A DNA stretch of 64,000 bases from Chitinophaga pinensis (GCA_943367715.1 CALRJY020000023.1:23264-87263); one strand, 5' to 3'; counted from the first letter of the stretch, positions 53,799 to 61,588 are shown. The notes: generated by a model from the letters alone, not told the origin. Numbers and translations: made by a program.

Positions 53799-56700
53799 TC
53801 AAAGCGGTCGCGGCCTCCCCGCCCTCACAACCCTCAAGCTAAATCCCCTGCCATTCTCATACGGCTCAACCCTCGCCACCACCTCCAGCACCGGATATCG
53901 CACCGTCGCCAACCCATAGCTTCGGTAACTGGCGGCATACAGCTCCGTCTCCACCATCCCGGTCCAATCACACAAAGTCATAAACTTCATCGGTTCCCCG
54001 GTGACTTGATGATGGGTCCGTTGTTCGATGATCAGCCCACAGACAACCACTTCTTGGCCAATGAACTGATGCAATCTCGAAACCGGGCAATAGGTGTCCC
54101 AAGCAATGTCACAATACAGCTCCAAAGGATGACCACTCGCCGCAAACCCTAATAAGTCGGTTTCCCATTGCAACTTCTCCAATCGACCCGGCTCCCGCAA
54201 TGTCGTCATGGGAAGCTTGTCCAAGGAAGGTGGAGGTAACAGCCAACCCTGCCCTGGCTCTGCATTCGGGCCAAAGGTCTGATGAAGATACTGCACCTCC
54301 CAAAATTGCTGTGTCCGGGATTGTCCAAAGCAGTCAAACCCACCTACCCGCATCAAGGATTCCAGTTCTTCCATCGAAGGATGCACCCGTAGGTAGAAGT
54401 CTTTCAGGCAAGCGAAGGATTTCCGGTTAGCTTCTTCCAGCAACAGTTCCTTTACCCTTTCGGTCAGACCTTTCACTGCCGTAACAGGAACTCGGATCTG
54501 CCCCTGCTCCACCACAAAGTTAGGTCCAGGATTGTTGATCGTTGGAGGAAGCAAACAGATACCCAAGCGATGGCACTCCAAAACATAGACCAGCGGAGCA
54601 TAAAACCCCTTCCCGTTCGTCAACACACCCGCCATGAATTCCGCCGGATGATACCGTTTCAACCACGCCGCCTGATACGCTTCCACTCCATAGGCCGTCG
54701 AGTGAGCTTTGCAGAAGGCATACCCGTTGAAGCCGGTCACCAACTCCCATACTTCCACGATTTTCTCCTGCCTATGTCCTCTCGATATGGCTCCCGCAGC
54801 AAACTCTTCAGCCATCTCTTCAACCACCTTATGTTTCTGCTTCACCAACGCTCTCCTCAACACATCAGCCCGCCCAGGTGACATTCCGGCAAAGGCTTCA
54901 CAGATCTGGAGAATGTGCTCTTCGTAAATGACCAAGCCGTAGGTGCTCCTCAGGCATGGTTCCAAGGAGGAGTCAGGGTAATAAGGTGGCTCCATTCCCT
55001 GATAACGACGGGTGAACTCCTGCTTTTTGTTCTCGTTCGCTGCACCCGGCCGAATAACGCTCACAATCGCTATCAGACCGTCGATTTCCCGCACATTGGT
55101 CATACGGCAGAGAGATACCATGGCCGGTGATTCAATGTGGTGAACAGCCCGCGCTCCCCCACTGGCAATCACCTCCCACACCTCGGGATCTTCCCAAGGT
55201 TCCAATGCAGCCAGATCCACAACGATTCCTTTGGCCAGGAGAGCTTGAACGGCATCTCGCATCACTGCCAATCCGCCTTGAGCCAACACATCAGTTTTGA
55301 CCAAGCCCACCACTTCCACTGATTCCATGTCCAGCTGCGTAGTCGGCCAGCCTTTATTCGAGATGAAGGTTGGAGTCAGTTGTTGCATGGGTTGCCGGGA
55401 TACAACAACCCCACATGGATGCATTTTAGGATGGCGAGGAAACCCATCCAGAAAGGCAGCAGTCTCTACGGCGGTCTTGAATGGTTCCTGATCCAGTGGC
55501 AGATCCCGGCACTCAGGACTTTGCCTCAGCATTTCCAACAAAGCTGCACCCCTGACATTGTGATGATCCTCAGATACCCACCCTCCGCCAAAGCTCCAGG
55601 GAAAGTGTTCGGTGAAGCGTCTGATTTGATGATCCGATACCCCTAAGACCTTCGCCACATCCGCTACTGCTGACTTAGCTTTGAAAGTAGAGAACCCTCC
55701 TACGACTGCACTATGCTGTGGGCCGTATTTCTCCAGCAACATTTCTACCACGTCATCTTTGCGGTCATGAGGAAAATCCACGTCGATATCAGGCAACTTG
55801 TTCAGCGCCATCCGGTCTTTGTTGAGGAAGCGCCGGAAGTAGAGGCCAAATCGGATCGGGCAGACGTCAGAGATCCCTAGGCTGTAACAAACCAATGAAT
55901 CTGCTGCACTGCCTCGGGTGATCCATTCGATGCCCCGTTTACGACAGTCCTGAAGCAAATCCCAGGTGATCAAGAACAAGTCCTCGTAACCGACGTCCGT
56001 GATGATGGCCAGCTCGGTCTCCAGTTGGGCTCGCACCTGCGTTGTAGACACTGCTGTGCCTGCATCCGAGCGAATGACTTTGCCGTGATATCGTCGGTTC
56101 ATCCCTTCCACCGCCAGCCGGTGGAGGAAAGCGCGCGAGCTAAGTCCATCCGGTGCCCGATACGCCGGGAACTGGGGTTTGCCAAAGGGGAAGTCGAACT
56201 GACAACGCTCGGCCAATTCCATGGTAAGTGGTATCCCTTTGGTTGAGCATTCCTGTGCTGATCGAAAGTGATAGTGGCCACCTGTGCGTTTCTGAGGATG
56301 CTGCTGGTTGAGGAGTGTCAGGGTTCGGATGCTTTGAACGATATCGTAGCATCGCCGGTCTTCTGGCCTCGCGTAATGAACCGAGGGACAGAAGATTGCA
56401 CCCGGCTTCCCTGCCTCATAGAATCGATCTCCAAACACATCCCTTAGCGTCGTATCGGAACTGACAGCCAAAAGACCTCGATGATGAACTGATAGCAGGC
56501 TGAGGGGTATGGGTGCCTGTTGTTTGGCAGCCACACTCTCATCGTCAGCTCGCACAGCCTGTTTTGAGAGCAATCGGCACAGGTTCTCGTAGCCCTCAGC
56601 ATTCTGCACATAGAGAAGCAGTGGATGGTTGCCGAATCTCAACTCCACACCGATAACTGGTTTGATCCCTGTCTTTTGAGCTGCCTGAACGAACTCAACC

Positions 56701-58076
56701 ACCCCATGAAGGTTGCCGGTATCAGTCATGGCCACCGCAGGGCATTGATTCTTTACCGCCAAATCAACGATCTGCTGTGGTGAGATGATGCTGTCCAGAA
56801 AGGAGTAGTAGCTATGCATCCTTAGAGGCACATACGTTGATGCCTTCTGGACGATATGCTTTCTGGTGGGAACGATGCTTGTAGGCTTGGAAGCATCGAC
56901 TGGAGGTTTACGCAGTCGAAAGTCATGGCCTCGAACGATAACCAGTCTGCCTTTCGTCTCCCGTAGCTCATCGATAGCACGAGCCAGCTTTGAGCGAGCA
57001 TCACTTTGTTCTGCCCTTCGATCCAAGGCCAGTTCTGTTCGCTGATGCCCGGTGTAGAGATTGGAGAGCTTGAGGGACACGAGCCTGATACTGATGCGAC
57101 GTTTCCAAGCTGCCTTGAGCATCATCGTTAACCTGTTGTAGACATCGGTTTCCAGTTCCGTGGGTTCCAACAGGCTTTCACTCACCTGATCCTCGGCCAT
57201 GTCGTTGTATCTCACTTTCACGGTCAGGGTGCGGATACTTCGACTCTCAGCCCTTACTTTGGCGAACAAGTCATCAGCCATCCTTCGGAGAACAGCCGCC
57301 AGATACTCCTCATCGGTGACATCCTGGCCAAAGGTTTCCTGCTGGCCGAAGGTCTTTTGTGGTTCACTAACTGGAATGAGTGGCCGTTCATCAATCCCAT
57401 GAGCGTGCTGTCGAACGATTACAGCCTGCTTGCCTAGCACCAACTCAAGCAGATCCACGGGCGTCTCTGCTATCTGGCGGATGTAAGCGAGTCCAGCGGA
57501 GTTCAAACGGATGGCGGTTTTAGGACCAATGCCCGGTAGCCATTTGTTTTCCAATGGGGCCAGGAACGCCGCCTCTTCACCTAGGGGTATATGGTGTAGT
57601 GCAGCCGGCTTGTTGAGTTTGCTGGCTATCTGGCTGATCAACTTATTGCTCGCCACTCCTTCACTCACCGAGATCTTCAGCTTCTGCCTGATGGCCTTCC
57701 TGACGATCTGGGCCACCTCCTCAGCGGGTTTGGGACTGGCAGTGAGCTCGTAGTAGCCTTCATCGATGGAGGTTTGCTCAACGTCAGGGGTGAAGTCGTA
57801 CGGATAACTGAACATCCACCGGGAGAACTCTTCATACCGCTCATAGTTTCCGGGCAAGACGATGAGTTTGGGACACAGCTTTCTGGCTTGAGCAGTAGGC
57901 ATTGGTGTGCGGACTCCAAACCTGCGTGCTTCATAGCTGGCACTAGCGACAATACCCCGCTTTTCACCACCCACGGCAATCGGCTTACCACGCAGATGAA
58001 CGTCCGCTGCCTGCTCTACGGAGGCAAAGAAGGCGTCGGCGTCCAGATGAACGATGATACGGGGTCTTTCTGACAT
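53799..58076 (-). CDS. Fusion of a Y-family DNA polymerase (DinB/Pol IV-like, catalytic residues intact) with error-prone Pol III alpha (DnaE2-like)
   Basis: aa 1-~400: IIVHLDADAFFASVEQ, GIVASASYEARRFGVRTPMP, TSIDEGY, SEGVASNKLISQIASKLNKP, WLPGIGPKT. From about aa 415: the PHP domain YVPLRMHSYYSFLDSIISPQQIVDLAV..AVAMTDTGNLHGVVEFV, then Pol III alpha core motifs (PDIDVDF, FCKAHSTAY). It is one uninterrupted 1425-codon ORF. Confidence 0.9.
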   Translation of the reverse strand: MSERPRIIVHLDADAFFASVEQAADVHLRGKPIAVGGEKRGIVASASYEARRFGVRTPMPTAQARKLCPKLIVLPGNYERYEEFSRWMFSYPYDFTPDVEQTSIDEGYYELTASPKPAEEVAQIVRKAIRQKLKISVSEGVASNKLISQIASKLNKPAALHHIPLGEEAAFLAPLENKWLPGIGPKTAIRLNSAGLAYIRQIAETPVDLLELVLGKQAVIVRQHAHGIDERPLIPVSEPQKTFGQQETFGQDVTDEEYLAAVLRRMADDLFAKVRAESRSIRTLTVKVRYNDMAEDQVSESLLEPTELETDVYNRLTMMLKAAWKRRISIRLVSLKLSNLYTGHQRTELALDRRAEQSDARSKLARAIDELRETKGRLVIVRGHDFRLRKPPVDASKPTSIVPTRKHIVQKASTYVPLRMHSYYSFLDSIISPQQIVDLAVKNQCPAVAMTDTGNLHGVVEFVQAAQKTGIKPVIGVELRFGNHPLLLYVQNAEGYENLCRLLSKQAVRADDESVAAKQQAPIPLSLLSVHHRGLLAVSSDTTLRDVFGDRFYEAGKPGAIFCPSVHYARPEDRRCYDIVQSIRTLTLLNQQHPQKRTGGHYHFRSAQECSTKGIPLTMELAERCQFDFPFGKPQFPAYRAPDGLSSRAFLHRLAVEGMNRRYHGKVIRSDAGTAVSTTQVRAQLETELAIITDVGYEDLFLITWDLLQDCRKRGIEWITRGSAADSLVCYSLGISDVCPIRFGLYFRRFLNKDRMALNKLPDIDVDFPHDRKDDVVEMLLEKYGPQHSAVVGGFSTFKAKSAVADVAKVLGVSDHQIRRFTEHFPWSFGGGWVSEDHHNVRGAALLEMLRQSPECRDLPLDQEPFKTAVETAAFLDGFPRHPKMHPCGVVVSRQPMQQLTPTFISNKGWPTTQLDMESVEVVGLVKTDVLAQGGLAVMRDAVQALLAKGIVVDLAALEPWEDPEVWEVIASGGARAVHHIESPAMVSLCRMTNVREIDGLIAIVSVIRPGAANENKKQEFTRRYQGMEPPYYPDSSLEPCLRSTYGLVIYEEHILQICEAFAGMSPGRADVLRRALVKQKHKVVEEMAEEFAAGAISRGHRQEKIVEVWELVTGFNGYAFCKAHSTAYGVEAYQAAWLKRYHPAEFMAGVLTNGKGFYAPLVYVLECHRLGICLLPPTINNPGPNFVVEQGQIRVPVTAVKGLTERVKELLLEEANRKSFACLKDFYLRVHPSMEELESLMRVGGFDCFGQSRTQQFWEVQYLHQTFGPNAEPGQGWLLPPPSLDKLPMTTLREPGRLEKLQWETDLLGFAASGHPLELYCDIAWDTYCPVSRLHQFIGQEVVVCGLIIEQRTHHQVTGEPMKFMTLCDWTGMVETELYAASYRSYGLATVRYPVLEVVARVEPYENGRGFSLRVVRAGRPRPL

Positions 58077-58100
58077 ACGCCGGCCATCGTAGACAGGTCA

Positions 58101-58121
58101 CTAGGACATCCGCTGTCCTAG
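58101..58121. promoter_or_regulatory. Perfect palindrome CTAGGACA-N5-TGTCCTAG between lexA and the polymerase gene
   Basis: 8-bp arms at 58101-58108 and 58114-58121, inside the 50-nt lexA-polymerase intergenic gap. Confidence 0.35.
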
Positions 58122-58126
58122 GTCCC

Positions 58127-58768
58127 TTAATCTTTGGATTTTCTGATTAGTGCCCGGAATACTCCCTGGATCATCAGTTCTTCGGCAGGAACCAGATCAG
58201 GGTATTTGGGATTCTCGGCCTTGAGGTAGGGCTTACGGTTGCGCAGCAGGAAGGTCTTCAAGGTTGATTTCCCATCAATCAAAGCGGCAACTACCTGACC
58301 ATTACGGGGTTCAGGGCCGTGCTTCATCACCACAATGTCCCCATCGATGATGAACTTACCGATCATGGAATCACCTGTGACCCGGAGGGCAAAGGTGTTC
58401 CGGTTGGGCTTGAAGCCGATAGATTCCACATCCACAGAGACACAGCCCTCGGCATCTTGGACCCGATCTTCTGATAAACCAGCCGGGATTGAACCGTAGA
58501 TGGGGATATCGACAATCCGTTGCCTAAACCTTTGCAGTGGAGAGATTACCTGCAATGAACGTGCCCTGCCATTCGACTCACCTAGGTAACCCTTCTGTCG
58601 GATAAGCCGGAGATGGTCGGTCACTGTGCTACTGGTAGTGAACCCGAAATGCCGTGCTATCTCTCGGACAGATGGTGTCGAGCCTCGGTTCTCCTGCTCG
58701 CGCAGGACGAAATCGACAATCTGCTGCTGACGTTTGGTTAAGGATTCAGACATACCGCACAAATGCAC
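58127..58768 (-). CDS. lexA: LexA repressor (S24 peptidase)
   Basis: N-terminal winged HTH LTKRQQQIVDFVLREQENRGSTPSVREIARHFGF, then FALRVTGDSMIGKFIIDGDIVVM (catalytic Ser) and VAALIDGKSTLKTF (catalytic Lys). The likely start is the ATG at 58753 (MSESLTK). Confidence 0.9.
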   Translation of the reverse strand: MHLCGMSESLTKRQQQIVDFVLREQENRGSTPSVREIARHFGFTTSSTVTDHLRLIRQKGYLGESNGRARSLQVISPLQRFRQRIVDIPIYGSIPAGLSEDRVQDAEGCVSVDVESIGFKPNRNTFALRVTGDSMIGKFIIDGDIVVMKHGPEPRNGQVVAALIDGKSTLKTFLLRNRKPYLKAENPKYPDLVPAEELMIQGVFRALIRKSKD

Positions 58769-58815
58769 GGTATCCTGGTTTTCAGCAGGGTCAACGGAGA
58801 GTTATTCACAGGTGG

Positions 58816-60339
58816 CTACTTCTTCTTAGGAGAAACGAGTTGAAGCATTATTGTCACGTAGTCGAATGGGAGCTGTTTAAACAAGCCCTCATCGAAAATC
58901 CACTCACAGGAATACTTCAACATAGGGTCGTGGTCTTTTTGATTGAGCAATATACGTATCGCCTGCAGCTCAGGGTTTGCAAACTGCCCTGCTTGGTTGT
59001 GCAAACGAACCAGAAAACAATACACCCGTTCATACCATCGAACGAGTTCTGCTGCGCCAACGTCCCCGAATTCTTCCTTGGCTTTCGCATAGGCGCGCTG
59101 AAATGCTGATGCAACGATTAACCTCGCCCTGAGTTGATCATTGGATGGTTTTGCATAACGTTCAGCAACCCTGTTGATGAACTCTTCCACTGGTAAACCT
59201 TGCGCAAGCGGGTCGGATGATTTGAAGAATGCCGTGAAAGCAGTTTCCTTAAACGGCAGGATTTCCAGCTCAAGCAACTCACCTCGATACTGTTCCTTCA
59301 TTTCTGCCTTCTGATCTTCGCTTAGCCCATCAAGCCAGTCAGATTGATGCTTATCGAGCCCCTTCCTTTTCAGAAAAGCACGACATTTTTCCCATCTTGC
59401 ACTTAGGTCCAGCGTCGCGTCGTCTTCAAAGGCACCTTCGTAATCCCAGGCTTGCGAACACCAGTGGTCGATGGTTTTCAGGTTCGGCGGGCGATACTCT
59501 TTAAGCAGTTCTCGAACCTGTCGATGCTCATCGTCAAACCCACCACGCCCAGCCTGTTTATCCGATAAACCATGCGGATCATCAGGGTGAAATAATCTAT
59601 GCGCTACCGATTCCAACTTCACACCTAGCAGGTCCTGCCACCACTCCAAAAGGGAATTAATCGGATACTTGTCTCCAAGACCCTTCGCAATTCTGGATGG
59701 GGCATTGATGATTGGCAGATACCAAAATCGCCCAGCAGGCAAACCTCGCTCAAAATTGGAATCAGCGCGAACATACTCGAAAAGGTTCATCGCCAAGAAT
59801 GGGATCACAAAGGTTCTCAACCAATAAGCTAAAGCTGGCTTTTGCGGAGATTTCGATTGCCCTACTTTTTGAAGAAAATAGTCATGCCGCAGCAAGAACT
59901 CCAAACCGTCGTGCATAACCAACTCAGCCAGATTCGCAATACTGCCATCCGGGTTTTTCTTCCAGTTCACAGATTGCTGAGGAGGGAAATGTTCTGGGAC
60001 AGGGACCAGCAATCCATGATACTCCACCCAGTGTATCTTTTTGACAGGTCCTGAGCTCTTTTGGGCTACCACTGACTTCAACAATTCTCGCGCTTCCTTG
60101 ATTCCGATGAATGCACCTGCAACACCTTCGATTACACCCAACAAAACCTTTTCGTATCTCTTATGGGTTAATGTGCCTTTTCTAAGCTGTTTTAAATCAT
60201 CGTAGTCAAGCCCGTCGGCATTCTTAGGAACACCAAGAAAATCCACCATGCACCCTAAGACCGCACCCGTTGTCGGAAAACCGTTCGTAGTGAATGACTT
60301 TATTTTCATGTGATGAAGACCCCGGTTTGGACAGGCCAA
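58816..60339 (-). CDS. Hypothetical protein (507 aa)
   Basis: Long ORF ending 47-62 nt upstream of lexA on the same strand. No motif recognised. The likely start is MKIKSFTT (60309). Confidence 0.6.
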   Translation of the reverse strand: MACPNRGLHHMKIKSFTTNGFPTTGAVLGCMVDFLGVPKNADGLDYDDLKQLRKGTLTHKRYEKVLLGVIEGVAGAFIGIKEARELLKSVVAQKSSGPVKKIHWVEYHGLLVPVPEHFPPQQSVNWKKNPDGSIANLAELVMHDGLEFLLRHDYFLQKVGQSKSPQKPALAYWLRTFVIPFLAMNLFEYVRADSNFERGLPAGRFWYLPIINAPSRIAKGLGDKYPINSLLEWWQDLLGVKLESVAHRLFHPDDPHGLSDKQAGRGGFDDEHRQVRELLKEYRPPNLKTIDHWCSQAWDYEGAFEDDATLDLSARWEKCRAFLKRKGLDKHQSDWLDGLSEDQKAEMKEQYRGELLELEILPFKETAFTAFFKSSDPLAQGLPVEEFINRVAERYAKPSNDQLRARLIVASAFQRAYAKAKEEFGDVGAAELVRWYERVYCFLVRLHNQAGQFANPELQAIRILLNQKDHDPMLKYSCEWIFDEGLFKQLPFDYVTIMLQLVSPKKK

Positions 60340-60664: not shown

Positions 60665-61588
60665 TCAATCCTGGGTAATTGCCCTAATCGTCTTCAAAGC
60701 ATTCCCCTCGAACCTATTGTTGACGTAGATGAACGCCTTCTTGGACCGCTCCCTTGCTTTCTTCATCATCAGGAGAGCCGCGTTCCTGCCTTCCACGTAA
60801 ACCTCTTTGGTGTCTTGGTATGGGCTGAACTGCTTCACCGCCTCCTCATAGCTCCGGCCTGGCTTCAACAGCATCCTCGACACAACAAACTCATCACTGG
60901 TCTCTGAACCATCCATCGATATCTGCTCGTTTAGCTCAGGCATACCGGACCAACTGTTGAACACATGCGCTACCCGGTGCTTCCTCAAGACAGCGAAATA
61001 GTCAGGATGCAGGAAGGCTTTGTTACGGATCTCCACCCCATACCGCCACCCATCAGGCAACCGTCCTAGGAAACGATCCAGATCTTCAACAAAGTCCCTG
61101 CCATGCTCATAGTCTACAGGATAGAACCGGGAGAACTCGAACATCAGCACTCCTACGTTGTCTTTAACAGGCTCCAGTGGCCTCAGGAACGCGTTGATGA
61201 ACAAATCCGCGTCAAGGTACTGCTCGTTGGGTTTGCCAGCCTTGGAGCCAAACCGTGGAAGATTGGCGTACCGTTTGATCGTGATGTGGTCAGTTACCTT
61301 GAACGTGAACAGGAAATCAGCAGGAACATCTTTGATCAGGCCATCCAAATACTTGTCTGTGGGGAACTGGTAGTAGGCAGCATCGACGCACACGGTCTTA
61401 AACGTCTCCGCATATTCAGCCAGACACAACCGCTCAAACCTCGTCTCCGCAAACTTCCCTCGATAGACGTAACGGGCTTCATCGTAGAGCTGCCCGGTCC
61501 AGCCAGTGTATTTCCACGACGACGTACCAAGATAGATTCCATTGCTGGCCAGATCGTTTAACTGAGGTTTGAGGTCCAAGGAATCCAT
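60665..61588 (-). CDS. DUF72 (YecE-like) protein
   Basis: IYLGTSSWKYTGWTGQLY is the DUF72 N-terminal signature. 307 aa. Confidence 0.8.
   Translation of the reverse strand: MDSLDLKPQLNDLASNGIYLGTSSWKYTGWTGQLYDEARYVYRGKFAETRFERLCLAEYAETFKTVCVDAAYYQFPTDKYLDGLIKDVPADFLFTFKVTDHITIKRYANLPRFGSKAGKPNEQYLDADLFINAFLRPLEPVKDNVGVLMFEFSRFYPVDYEHGRDFVEDLDRFLGRLPDGWRYGVEIRNKAFLHPDYFAVLRKHRVAHVFNSWSGMPELNEQISMDGSETSDEFVVSRMLLKPGRSYEEAVKQFSPYQDTKEVYVEGRNAALLMMKKARERSKKAFIYVNNRFEGNALKTIRAITQD

What the first reader, a model, noticed from the sequence alone, without database searches (positions are those of the whole stretch)
53799..58768. Catalytically intact DinB-like Y-family polymerase fused in frame to a DnaE2-like Pol III alpha, adjacent to lexA, with no imuA or imuB
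The widespread SOS mutagenesis cassette is lexA-imuA-imuB-dnaE2. In that cassette ImuB is a Y-family homologue lacking the catalytic acidic residues. Here a single 1425-codon ORF joins a Y-family module to the PHP/Pol III alpha module. The Y-family module retains the catalytic Asp/Asp-Glu positions (HLDADAFFASVE and SIDEGY). lexA lies 50 nt upstream on the same strand, and no imuA-like gene is present. A covalent fusion of a TLS polymerase with DnaE2 would be an unusual solution to polymerase hand-off.
Basis: partly seen in the sequence, partly recalled or inferred. Interest (0 to 1): 0.6.

Follow-up and report, generated by a model that had tools for sequence, protein, structure and literature searches.

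The report
Fused DinB-DnaE2-like SOS polymerase gene
One gene directly behind the DNA-damage repressor gene lexA encodes two apparently active DNA polymerases (a Pol IV-like lesion-bypass enzyme and a DnaE2-like enzyme) joined by a floppy linker. It is a real, conserved single-chain version of a two-gene error-prone polymerase system, common in one order of Verrucomicrobiota, named in databases and untested by experiment.

Summary
Window 53799-58076 (-) is one uninterrupted 1425-codon gene. It reads: DinB-type Y-family polymerase (catalytic D12/D105/E106 and steric-gate Phe kept), a RecA-N-terminus-like motif, a disordered tether of about 30 residues, then a C-family polymerase (palm D763/D765/D929 kept, PHP metal site degenerate, no tau-binding tail). 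lexA lies 50 nt upstream.

It is not an assembly artefact. The same genome holds a second lexA-fusion cassette (69% identical), and these are its only two lexA genes. The fusion occurs in 157 of 401 sampled genomes of the order. lexA is upstream in about 68 of 74 informative loci. No ImuA and no catalytically dead Y-family protein were found.

The C-family module branches with DnaE2-type enzymes, not DnaE1, but outside the ImuA/ImuB-linked group, and it fails NCBI's DnaE2 model. The closest described system is the two-gene DnaE2B-PolY-RecA module. Unfused polY-dnaE pairs exist in other Verrucomicrobiota.

NCBI already names such proteins 'fused DNA polymerase IV/DNA polymerase III subunit alpha', but I found no paper describing them. 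This scan reported the same fusion earlier on other genomes.

New here: the duplicated cassette, co-variation of the LexA recognition helix with its operator, and a recurrent DUF72 partner.

The parts
53799..58076 (-). Whole fusion gene, 1425 codons plus stop: polY (DinB-type) fused to a dnaE2-like gene
   Evidence: Open frame. Pfam and NCBIfam domains. Full-length homologues.
57042..58076 (-). Y-family (Pol IV/DinB-type) module, residues 1-345: palm, fingers, thumb and little finger. Catalytic D12, D105, E106; steric gate F16/F17.
   Evidence: IMS and IMS_C. NF002677 scores 263.1 against a cut-off of 256. Aligns to E. coli Pol IV 4ir1 at 2e-45 and to 7yll at 1e-61. D12, D14, D105 and E106 are invariant in 46 homologues.
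56919..57041 (-). C-terminal tail of the Y module, residues 346-386. RTELAL (346-351) sits where DinB carries its clamp-binding motif. It is followed by the RecA-N-terminus-like motif SKLARAIDELRETKGRLVIVRGHD (362-385).
   Evidence: E348, L349 and L351 are invariant or nearly so. The unfused relative G004 has QLDLF and G005 has QLPL at this position. Ungapped likeness to the genome's own RecA N-terminus ELDAAIATITKTYGEGSIMRLGD. Helix 353-375 in the AF2 model.
56832..56918 (-). Disordered tether, residues 387-415, between the two polymerase modules
   Evidence: pLDDT below 50 for residues 382-411. In 40 homologues this stretch is 26-95 residues (median 35), not conserved, and rich in R/A/P/S/T.
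53802..56831 (-). C-family (DnaE2-like) module, residues 416-1425. PHP domain with a degenerate metal site (R419 for His, T453 for His, S565 for Asp). Palm aspartates D763, D765, D929. Fingers, HhH, a candidate internal clamp motif QGWLL (1276-1280), and an OB region. No tau-binding C-terminal domain.
   Evidence: Pfam. Aligns to Taq Pol III alpha 2hpi up to residue 1110 of 1220. Invariant D763, D765, D929. Family conservation. Tree.
58127..58753 (-). lexA (208 aa from the conserved ATG). Winged-HTH plus S24 peptidase, with the Ala-Gly site (SIPAGL), GDSM serine and TLK lysine present.
   Evidence: Upstream of the fusion on the same strand in about 68 of 74 informative loci.
58752..58773 (-). 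Probable LexA operator ATACCGTGCATTTGTGCGGTAT (imperfect palindrome with perfect outer arms ATACCG/CGGTAT). It ends inside the lexA start codon.
   Evidence: It lies at the same position as the clear palindromes (for example ATACTGTCCATTTGGACAGTAT and ACTGTTCATTTGAACAGT) in about 60 related loci. Binding was not tested.
58774..58812 (-). Promoter block: conserved CCTGTGAATAACTCTCCG followed by the -35-like TTGACC (58789-58794). Homology to the C7 copy and to relatives begins at 58812.
58101..58121 (-). Palindrome CTAGGACAGCGGATGTCCTAG in the 50-nt lexA-polymerase spacer. It is conserved in the C7 copy and, as GGACAGC-N3-TGTCC, in one sub-clade only. Many relatives have no spacer at all.
   Evidence: Function unknown, and not required by the family.
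60665..61588 (-). DUF72 gene, a recurrent neighbour of the cassette. The 507-aa ORF (58816-60339) lies between it and lexA.
   Evidence: Pfam PF01904. 82% nt identity to the DUF72 gene beside the C7 cassette. Adjacent in 12-14 of about 75 loci. Lies inside the Desulfosarcina plasmid operon lexA-DUF72-polY-dnaE.

Best explanation
The locus is a two-gene operon, lexA plus polY::dnaE2, repressed by LexA and induced by DNA damage. Its product is a single polypeptide with two catalytically competent DNA polymerases. The N-terminal module is a DinB/Pol IV-type lesion-bypass polymerase. The C-terminal module is a DnaE2-like C-family polymerase that lacks PHP proofreading and the tau-binding tail. The two are joined by a flexible tether of 26-95 residues. 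The tail of the Y module carries a mimic of the RecA N-terminus.

Proposed mechanism (inferred, not shown):
- DNA damage produces RecA filaments.
- LexA cleaves itself, and the operon is de-repressed from an operator that covers the promoter and the start codon.
- The enzyme is recruited or activated through RecA bound to the RecA-NT-like motif, in place of ImuA. The sliding clamp binds through the internal QGWLL motif and/or the degenerate ELxL motif.
- One active site inserts opposite the lesion and the other extends, so the swap happens within one molecule.

Evolutionarily it is the covalently fused form of the two-gene PolY + DnaE2B (+RecA) module. The fusion arose within Verrucomicrobiae. 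This genome carries two diverged copies, each with its own LexA and operator.
For: Shown by sequence:
- Uninterrupted frame and domain order.
- The Y module passes the curated Pol IV threshold and aligns to solved Pol IV structures with the catalytic residues in register.
- D12, D14, D105, E106, D763, D765 and D929 are invariant in 46 homologues that were not chosen by motif.
- The PHP metal ligands are replaced.
- The alignment to Taq alpha ends before the tau-binding domain.
- A separate full DnaE1 with an intact PHP motif and QVSLF is present.

Tree (careful search):
- DnaE1 is separated at 100/100.
- Fusions, unfused Verrucomicrobiota relatives and a Desulfosarcina plasmid lexA-DUF72-polY-dnaE enzyme group at 98/96.
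- That group is sister to the ImuA/ImuB-linked DnaE2s.

Unfused polY-dnaE neighbours with the same HLDADAFF/SIDE motifs occur in G005 and G004.

RecA-NT likeness and predicted helix. Disordered, length-variable tether.

LexA control:
- lexA is upstream in about 68 of 74 loci.
- A conserved -35-like TTGACA plus a palindrome abuts the ATG.
- The palindrome half-site co-varies with the LexA recognition helix.

No ImuA or ImuB in the genome.

Literature: DnaE2B enzymes occur in genomes without imuA/imuB and are linked to active or inactive PolYs bearing a RecA-NT motif (PMC12926913 section 20; PMC6511836 section 17).
Against: - No activity of either module, no induction, no LexA binding and no RecA or clamp contact has been measured for any member.
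- The canonical DinB clamp motif is degenerate (RTELAL; family SELPL), and the internal QGWLL is only moderately conserved.
- The window's operator is an imperfect palindrome. No further good operator copies were found in the genome, not even at recA, so the size of the regulon is unknown.
- The AF2 model is of moderate quality (pLDDT 72, and low in the Y-family palm). It gives no information on contacts between the modules.
- Membership of the published DnaE2B clade was not tested against that paper's own tree.
- The ImuA model failed its control (Caulobacter was not over the cut-off), so a very divergent ImuA cannot be excluded.
Confidence: 0.65

Rival explanations
1. The fusion is an assembly, binning or frameshift artefact, and two separate genes (polY and dnaE2) really exist.
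For: The genome is a draft of 76 contigs. Unfused neighbours exist in other Verrucomicrobiota, and G005 lies inside the fusion clade. Reads could not be inspected.
Against: Two diverged copies (69% identity) in the same genome are both open. More than 120 full-length proteins come from independent sources. The fusion is found in 157 of 401 genomes of the order, some of them single-contig. The tether varies in length yet always stays in frame.
Confidence: 0.01
2. Only one module is a working polymerase. The Y module may serve, like ImuB, mainly as a hub (RecA and clamp docking) for the DnaE2-like enzyme. Alternatively, the DnaE2-like module may serve as a scaffold for DinB.
For: In the characterised ImuA-ImuB-DnaE2 mutasome only DnaE2 is catalytic and the Y-family partner is a hub (PMC10421592, PMC12926913 section 22). 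Inactive-PolY variants of DnaE2B modules are common (PMC12926913 section 20). The Desulfosarcina partner lacks both motifs.
Against: Every catalytic residue of both sites is invariant across 46 sequences that share only about 62% mean column identity. The steric-gate aromatic residue is also kept. Relaxed selection on a dead site would have eroded it, as it did in ImuB.
Confidence: 0.2
3. The enzyme is not primarily a mutagenic lesion-bypass machine. It may be a gap-filling or repair-synthesis polymerase, for example one that works with excision repair in non-growing cells. It may also be a function of the mobile/defence island in which both copies sit.
For: DnaE2 acts with nucleotide excision repair in non-replicating Caulobacter (PMC8102061). 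Both cassettes adjoin defence-type genes: Avs9 and hsd relics in the window, and two PNP-superfamily effector-like proteins on C7. DUF72 is a recurrent partner of unknown function. Homology between cassettes has sharp borders.
Against: LexA control, a RecA-NT motif and loss of PHP proofreading are the hallmarks of error-prone SOS polymerases. No defence-system model matched the polymerase or LexA. Defence-island adjacency was seen in only two loci of one genome.
Confidence: 0.12
4. The C-family module is a diverged spare replicative DnaE1-type alpha subunit rather than a DnaE2-type enzyme.
For: NCBIfam scores are higher for the DnaE1 model (643 bits) than for the DnaE2 model (485 bits), and neither reaches its cut-off.
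Against: In the tree it is separated from DnaE1 at 100/100 and groups with the DnaE2 side. The PHP site is degenerate and the tau-binding domain is absent. A canonical DnaE1 is present elsewhere. Relatives that are clearly operon-linked to PolY and lexA show the same score pattern.
Confidence: 0.03

Closest known systems
DnaE2B-PolY-RecA putative mutasome (Bacteroidetes PolY2 + DnaE2, e.g. [quoted passage not shown]
   Same: [quoted passage not shown] The genomes lack imuA and imuB, and RecA is presumed to be the third partner.
   Different: There the two polymerases are separate proteins encoded by neighbouring genes; here they form one chain. The described examples are from other phyla. Membership of their DnaE2B clade was not tested with their sequences. 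Neither version has been tested experimentally.
ImuA-ImuB-DnaE2 mutasome (Mycobacterium, Caulobacter, Pseudomonas; PMC10421592)
   Same: An SOS-regulated pairing of a Y-family protein with a DnaE2-type polymerase lacking PHP proofreading. The Y-family partner carries the RecA-type and clamp contacts.
   Different: ImuB is catalytically dead and has an ImuB-C beta-barrel that grips the DnaE2 PHP domain. ImuA is required. Here the Y module is intact, there is no ImuB-C domain (only a disordered tether), no ImuA was found, and the C-family module fails the DnaE2 model NF004225.
Desulfosarcina ovata plasmid Do28_1 operon lexA-DUF72-'hypothetical' (Pol IV-like, motifs lost)-DNA polymerase III alpha (NZ_AP021877.1)
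   Same: Its C-family enzyme is the nearest named relative outside Verrucomicrobiota in my tree. The operon includes lexA and DUF72, as this locus does.
   Different: The genes are separate and the Y-family partner appears inactive (the DnaE2B-iPolY type). It is plasmid-borne in a different phylum.
E. coli Pol V Mut (UmuD'2C-RecA-ATP)
   Same: A LexA-controlled Y-family polymerase whose C-terminal region binds a RecA monomer through a RecA-NT-like motif (PMC12926913 section 22).
   Different: Pol V has no UmuD-type subunit equivalent here and no second polymerase.
Database entries named 'fused DNA polymerase IV/DNA polymerase III subunit alpha' (NCBI annotation of Verrucomicrobia MAGs, P0118)
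   Same: The same protein family at 65% identity over the full length.
   Different: It is only a name. No publication, function or regulation is attached to it in the library I could search.
Eukaryotic two-polymerase bypass (a Y-family inserter such as Rev1 or Pol eta, then Pol zeta as extender) - analogy from general knowledge
   Same: A division of labour between an inserter and an extender at one lesion is the model proposed here.
   Different: The enzymes are unrelated and are held together non-covalently. This is an analogy, not homology.

Membership tests
DNA polymerase IV / DinB (Y family; NCBIfam NF002677, Pfam IMS + IMS_C) | Profile score over the curated cut-off | tested here: met
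   NF002677 scores 263.1 bits against a cut-off of 256. IMS 150.6 and IMS_C 68.1 bits.
DNA polymerase IV / DinB (Y family; NCBIfam NF002677, Pfam IMS + IMS_C) | Catalytic Asp / Asp-Glu and steric-gate aromatic residue | tested here: met
   D12, D105, E106 and F16/F17 align with the E. coli Pol IV residues in 4ir1. They are invariant or at least 90% conserved in 46 homologues.
DNA polymerase IV / DinB (Y family; NCBIfam NF002677, Pfam IMS + IMS_C) | C-terminal beta-clamp-binding motif (QLxLF / QLxLxL) | tested here: inconclusive
   The position reads RTELAL (family SELPL). Only E348, L349 and L351 are conserved. Unfused relatives have QLDLF or QLPL there.
DNA polymerase IV / DinB (Y family; NCBIfam NF002677, Pfam IMS + IMS_C) | Stand-alone protein of about 350-420 residues | tested here: not met
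   It is the N-terminal 345-386 residues of a 1425-residue chain.
ImuB | Loss of the catalytic acidic residues | tested here: not met
   The motifs are intact. Four proteobacterial ImuBs lack them and form a separate branch (99 support) in the Y-family tree.
ImuB | ImuB-C beta-barrel domain after the RecA-NT motif | tested here: not met
   Only 29 residues (26-95 across the family) lie between the RecA-NT-like motif and the PHP domain. They are predicted disordered. No further Pfam domain was found.
ImuB | Partner ImuA encoded in the genome | tested here: not met
   NF033429 matched only recA, at 53.7 bits against 150. PF00154 found recA and one weak hit. Caveat: the model's control was weak.
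DnaE2, error-prone DNA polymerase (NCBIfam NF004225) | Profile score over the curated cut-off | tested here: not met
   485.2 bits against a cut-off of 939. The Ralstonia DnaE2 control scored 1532.5.
DnaE2, error-prone DNA polymerase (NCBIfam NF004225) | Branches with DnaE2 rather than DnaE1 | tested here: met
   DnaE1 is split off at 100/100. The fusion group (98/96) is sister to the ImuA/ImuB-linked DnaE2s. Reference sampling was small (4 DnaE2A, 7 DnaE1).
DnaE2, error-prone DNA polymerase (NCBIfam NF004225) | Palm aspartates kept, PHP metal site degenerate, no tau-binding C-terminal domain | tested here: met
   PDIDVDF and VKTDV are kept. R419, T453 and S565 replace PHP ligands. The alignment to Taq alpha stops at residue 1110 of 1220.
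DnaE2B-PolY-RecA association module (PMC12926913) | DnaE2-type enzyme in a genome without imuA/imuB, linked to a PolY | tested here: met
   The linkage here is covalent. Neighbouring-gene versions occur in G005 and G004.
DnaE2B-PolY-RecA association module (PMC12926913) | PolY carries a RecA-NT motif | tested here: inconclusive
   Residues 362-385 resemble the genome's own RecA N-terminus without gaps. They are conserved (A365, D369, L371, R372, G376, R382-D385) and predicted helical. No formal motif profile or binding test was available.
DnaE2B-PolY-RecA association module (PMC12926913) | Placement in the authors' DnaE2B clade | not tested
   Their tree and sequences were not at hand. In the text held, their genome list shows about ten Verrucomicrobia and no Pedosphaera, Prosthecobacter or Limisphaera (the file was cut when stored).
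DnaE2B-PolY-RecA association module (PMC12926913) | Separate subunits forming a complex | tested here: not met
   It is a single polypeptide.
LexA (TIGR00498) | Profile over the cut-off; DNA-binding domain plus S24 peptidase with Ala-Gly, Ser and Lys | tested here: met
   156.2 bits against 110.95. LexA_DNA_bind and Peptidase_S24 domains. SIPAGL, GDSM and TLK are seen in the translation.

The most novel reading that the evidence does not exclude
The promoter-lexA-polY::dnaE2 block is a self-contained, self-regulated and exchangeable 'mutagenesis cassette'. Each cassette's LexA has evolved its own operator specificity, so that recognition helix and half-site co-vary. Two cassettes in one cell, as here, would then form insulated damage-response circuits. 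The single-chain enzyme would carry out insertion and extension at a lesion as an intramolecular polymerase switch activated by RecA. If so, it would be the first natural covalent Y-family/C-family polymerase and a natural example of LexA specificity diverging after duplication.
Probability: 0.2. Interest if true: 0.75.

Novelty: new variant of a known kind. Interest (0 to 1): 0.55.

Why it matters
How a bypass polymerase takes over from another polymerase, and hands back, is a central open problem in damage tolerance. In bacteria the DnaE2 systems are the main drivers of damage-induced mutation, including drug resistance in mycobacteria. Their multi-protein complexes are hard to reconstitute. 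A natural single chain holding both polymerases plus the RecA-docking motif gives fixed 1:1 stoichiometry. That makes it a convenient object for biochemistry and cryo-EM. It also tests directly whether an active Y-family enzyme and a DnaE2-type enzyme cooperate at one lesion.

It further shows that recent surveys based on complete genomes missed a common architecture, because the lineage is known almost only from metagenome bins. The LexA/operator co-variation offers a data set for how a repressor and its site co-evolve.

Tried and rejected
- The published Verrucomicrobia LexA motif TGTTC-N4-GAACA (recalled from Erill et al. 2016) found nothing near lexA in the window with up to 2 mismatches (20 hits against 31 expected). 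The explanation came later: this cassette's operator is a diverged variant. The paper itself is not held.
- Papers were searched for any description of the fusion. None was found. Absence from this library does not prove absence from the literature.
- The first C-family tree contained two wrongly picked frames (L022, L035; branch lengths 6.5 and 10). They were removed and the tree rebuilt.
- My first 68-sequence alignment was selected with a regular expression for the active-site motifs, so its invariance at D12/D14 was circular. The claim rests on alignment A1, built from database proteins not chosen by motif.
- Long homologues (1500-1790 aa) were suspected of carrying inteins. The inserts are low-complexity, repeat-like segments at loop positions, without intein ends.
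- I looked for further operators in the genome, including upstream of recA. Only the two cassettes' own sites are convincing.
- A search of 1.84 billion representative proteins with residues 201-700 gave only members of the same family among the top 150 (at least 36% identity, many fragments). It showed no evidence of an independent fusion elsewhere, but carries no taxonomy.
Full report
**1. What is there**

Window 53799-58076 (minus strand) is one open frame of 1425 codons.

- Pfam finds, in order, IMS 11-153, IMS_C 241-344, PHP 418-541, DNA_pol3_alpha 650-932, the finger domain 936-1099 and HHH_6 1172-1256.
- NCBIfam puts the first 346 residues over the curated threshold for DNA polymerase IV (NF002677, 263.1 bits against 256).
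- NCBIfam matches the rest to Pol III alpha models without reaching any equivalog cut-off: DnaE1 NF004226 at 643 bits and error-prone NF004225 at 485 bits.
- Fifty bases upstream on the same strand lies lexA (58127-58768 as listed). Its conserved start is the ATG at 58753. It scores 156.2 bits on TIGR00498 against 110.95, and shows the SIPAGL, GDSM and TLK cleavage features.

**2. It is not an artefact**

- The genome (6.29 Mb, 76 contigs, 94.6% complete) has a second lexA-fusion cassette on contig C7, with a 1400-aa fusion and a 208-aa LexA.
- The two fusions are 69% identical overall. They are about 93% identical over the first 150 residues, and the LexAs are 86% identical. This points to gene conversion or stronger constraint at the 5' end. 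In line with that, the two copies are close in the Y-module tree but not in the C-family tree.
- These are the only two lexA genes found in the genome.
- The protein database returned more than 120 full-length homologues at 61-83% identity. One is named by NCBI 'fused DNA polymerase IV/DNA polymerase III subunit alpha'.
- In species-representative genomes, the fusion is in 157 of 401 sampled genomes of the order. That is 107 of 250 good-quality genomes and 89 of 166 genera, but only 3 of 7 in the window's own genus besides itself. Several genomes hold 2-3 copies, and some are single-contig assemblies.
- In an even sample of the whole phylum, full-length fusions appeared only in the window's class.
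- Named loci are all Verrucomicrobiota bins, apart from a few obviously mislabelled ones: Pedosphaera, Limisphaerales, Prosthecobacter and Brevifollis.

**3. Anatomy of the protein**

*Y module.*
- It aligns with E. coli Pol IV (4ir1, E = 2e-45) and with 7yll (1e-61). D12, D105, E106 and the steric-gate F16/F17 are in register.
- In an alignment of 46 homologues not selected by motif, D12, D14, D105 and E106 are invariant.

*Tail of the Y module.*
- After the little finger, where DinB proteins carry their clamp-binding peptide, the window reads RTELAL (family consensus SELPL). Only E348, L349 and L351 are fixed.
- Unfused relatives have QLDLF (G004) or QLPL (G005) at this spot.
- Residues 362-385 (SKLARAIDELRETKGRLVIVRGHD) resemble, without gaps, the N-terminus of the genome's own RecA (ELDAAIATITKTYGEGSIMRLGD). 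They are conserved. This is the 'RecA-NT motif' that Timinskas and Venclovas describe in Y-family tails (PMC6511836; PMC12926913).

*Tether.*
- Residues 387-415 are predicted disordered. AlphaFold2 on residues 1-1200 gave mean pLDDT 72 and pTM 0.61. Residues 344-352 and 382-411 are below 50, and 353-375 form a helix.
- Across 40 homologues the tether is 26-95 residues (median 35), unconserved and rich in R/A/P/S/T.

*C-family module.*
- It aligns best with Thermus aquaticus Pol III alpha (2hpi, 4e-119) up to residue 1110 of 1220. It therefore has the OB region but not the tau-binding domain.
- PDIDVDF (D763, D765) and VKTDV (D929) are invariant.
- In the PHP domain the metal ligands are replaced: LRMHS for HxH, MTDTG for TDHG, and PSVHY for NDxHY. 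The genome's DnaE1 keeps them.
- QGWLL (1276-1280) lies at the position of the QVSLF clamp motif of the genome's DnaE1. It is moderately conserved.

**4. Relationships**

The careful maximum-likelihood tree of the C-family module (34 rows, 998 columns) shows the following.
- DnaE1 is split off at 100/100.
- Four proteobacterial DnaE2s, taken from annotated imuA-imuB-dnaE2 plasmid loci, plus a Streptomyces plasmid enzyme, form one group (100/99).
- The fusions, the unfused Verrucomicrobiota relatives and the enzyme of a Desulfosarcina ovata plasmid operon lexA-DUF72-(Pol IV-like, motifs lost)-dnaE form its sister group (98/96).
- The fusions plus G005 are a 100/100 clade. G069, G004 and G008, all unfused, branch outside it.

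G005 and G004 have a polY gene directly upstream of the dnaE gene. Their PolY shares the HLDADAFF and SIDE(G/A)Y motifs.

The simplest reading is a two-gene ancestor, one fusion within Verrucomicrobiae, and a secondary split in G005. Two independent fusions are not excluded.

NCBI's DnaE2 model recognises only the ImuA/ImuB-linked type. It scores 1532 bits for Ralstonia but 462-624 bits for the whole PolY-linked group.

The Y module is far from ImuB, which lacks both motifs. The genome has no ImuA over threshold (the model's control was weak), no ImuB-like match and no inactive Y-family gene.

**5. Regulation**

- lexA lies upstream on the same strand in about 68 of 74 loci with enough flanking DNA. 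It is within 200 nt in about 60, and often overlaps or abuts the fusion gene.
- Upstream of lexA, nearly every locus has a -35-like TTGAC(A). Some 12-17 nt later comes a palindrome of about 18-22 bp that runs into the ATG. Examples are ATACTGTCCATTTGGACAGTATG and ACTGTTCATTTGAACAGT.
- The second example contains TGTTC-N4-GAACA, the motif I recall from Erill et al. 2016. That paper is not held.
- The window has ATACCGTGCATTTGTGCGGTAT at 58752-58773. The C7 copy has ACCATACATCTGTATGGT.
- The half-site co-varies with the LexA recognition helix across loci. Examples: RSHRAAACHLEAL with CTATCC; SSKRAAECHxEAL with CTAGCC; ASKTAAACHVRAL with CTGTCC; RSM(N/T)AAxDHVRAL with CTGTTC; RSLTTVADHLRLI with CCGT. 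This was read by eye and is not corrected for phylogeny.
- In this genome, good matches to either operator occur only at the two cassettes themselves, and none at recA. The LexA regulon may be small, or its other sites may be degenerate.

**6. Mechanism proposed**

*Shown:* the gene structure, the conservation of both active sites, the degenerate PHP site, the absent tau tail, the conserved lexA linkage and operator position, and the absence of ImuA and ImuB.

*Inferred:* damage-induced LexA cleavage de-represses the operon. RecA docks on the RecA-NT-like motif, as in Pol V and as proposed for DnaE2B-PolY-RecA. The clamp binds at QGWLL and/or ELxL. The Y module inserts opposite lesions and the proofreading-less C-family module extends, or the reverse. 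The flexible tether would let the two sites exchange on one primer end. Confidence is about 0.65.

*Rivals:*
- Only one site works, as in a hub model (0.2).
- The role is repair synthesis or is island-related rather than mutagenic bypass (0.12).
- The module is a spare DnaE1 (0.03).
- The fusion is an artefact (0.01).

**7. Comparison with what is known, and novelty**

The closest described system is the ImuA/ImuB-independent DnaE2B-PolY-RecA module (PMC6511836 section 17; PMC12926913 sections 20 and 22). It is known as separate, neighbouring genes and is itself uncharacterised experimentally.

Neither paper, nor the 2014 survey of Pol III alpha homologues (PMC3919608), mentions a covalent fusion. 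As far as the stored text shows, the 2026 genome set lacks the lineages that carry it.

The architecture is nevertheless named in NCBI annotation. This scan has already reported it on other genomes, with the same conclusion (e1-2137073, e1-4647408, e1-4755525). I therefore rate it a new variant of a known kind: real, conserved, unpublished as far as I can see, and attractive for experiment, but not categorically new.

**8. What this window adds**

- There are two diverged cassettes in one genome. They hold the only lexA genes, each with its own helix and operator variant.
- Homology between cassettes starts exactly 58 nt upstream of the lexA ATG (window 58812) and ends at the fusion's stop codon.
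- A DUF72 gene (60665-61588) is a recurrent neighbour. In the window the unassignable 507-aa ORF is wedged between DUF72 and lexA.
- Both cassettes border defence-type genes.

Noticed in passing
window 58752-58773 and 58127-58753; G000 contig C7 (L008 11036-11690); loci L062-L139: Across about 60 lexA-fusion loci, the residues of the LexA recognition helix co-vary with the half-site of the palindrome in front of lexA (CTATCC, CTAGCC, CTGTCC, CTGTTC, CCGT, CCAT and others). The two cassettes of this genome carry different helix/operator pairs. This looks like repressor-operator co-evolution, possibly giving insulated circuits.
   Followed up: partly
whole genome G000: Good copies of either cassette operator occur only at the two cassettes' own promoters. 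Nothing convincing lies upstream of recA. The SOS regulon of this organism may be very small, or may use degenerate sites.
   Followed up: partly
window 60665-61588 (-); L008 12316-13236; L140 2003-2809: A DUF72 gene accompanies the cassette in both loci of this genome (82% nt identity between the two). It is adjacent in 12-14 of about 75 related loci, and lies inside the lexA-DUF72-polY-dnaE operon of a Desulfosarcina plasmid. DUF72 may be an uncharacterised SOS or repair partner.
   Followed up: partly
window 58816-60339 (-): The 507-aa ORF without family hits (a weak PADLOC 'Ankyrin' match, 54 bits) sits between DUF72 and lexA. It is absent from the closest relative's locus (L069) and from the C7 copy, which has a 154-aa ORF there. 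It looks like an insertion into the cassette's upstream border rather than part of it.
   Followed up: partly
window 58812 and 53799; Nucleotide homology between the window cassette, the C7 cassette and relatives begins sharply at CCTGTGAATAACTC (58 nt before the lexA ATG) and ends at the fusion stop codon. This would fit a unit that is exchanged or converted as a block. A TGTGAATAA string also occurs upstream of recA.
   Followed up: no
window 58101-58121: The palindrome CTAGGACAGCGGATGTCCTAG in the lexA-polymerase spacer is identical in the C7 copy. As GGACAGC-N3-TGTCC it is kept in one sub-clade only. Several relatives keep the left arm but break the pairing, and many have no spacer. It is therefore neither a family-wide operator nor a clearly covarying hairpin.
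   Followed up: partly
G000 contig C7, L008 3425-6510 (-): Directly downstream of the second cassette are two PNP/phosphorylase-superfamily proteins, one with an EAD7 domain and one with TPR repeats. Both match PADLOC effector models (PDLC00759, PDC-M60C). Both cassettes thus border defence-type genes.
   Followed up: no
loci L093, L109, L110, L112, L124, L129, L136 (homologues of 1500-1790 aa): Long homologues carry in-frame, low-complexity, repeat-like inserts of 60-200 residues at a few fixed positions (after window residues 404, 510, 951-955 and 1192). They do not look like inteins.
   Followed up: partly
G000 contig C13 (L009 6819-8279, -): A third kind of Y-family gene (486 aa; LDLNSYFASVE and SIDE motifs, QMELF clamp motif, RecA-NT-like tail RLSEAIDVLNRRFGRDTV) lies next to a histidine kinase/response regulator pair, not next to a dnaE gene.
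   Followed up: no
locus L054 (genome G005): An unfused polY (with QLPL and a RecA-NT-like tail, then a stop) followed by dnaE nests inside the fusion clade in the C-family tree. It is either a secondary gene fission or evidence for more than one fusion event.
   Followed up: partly
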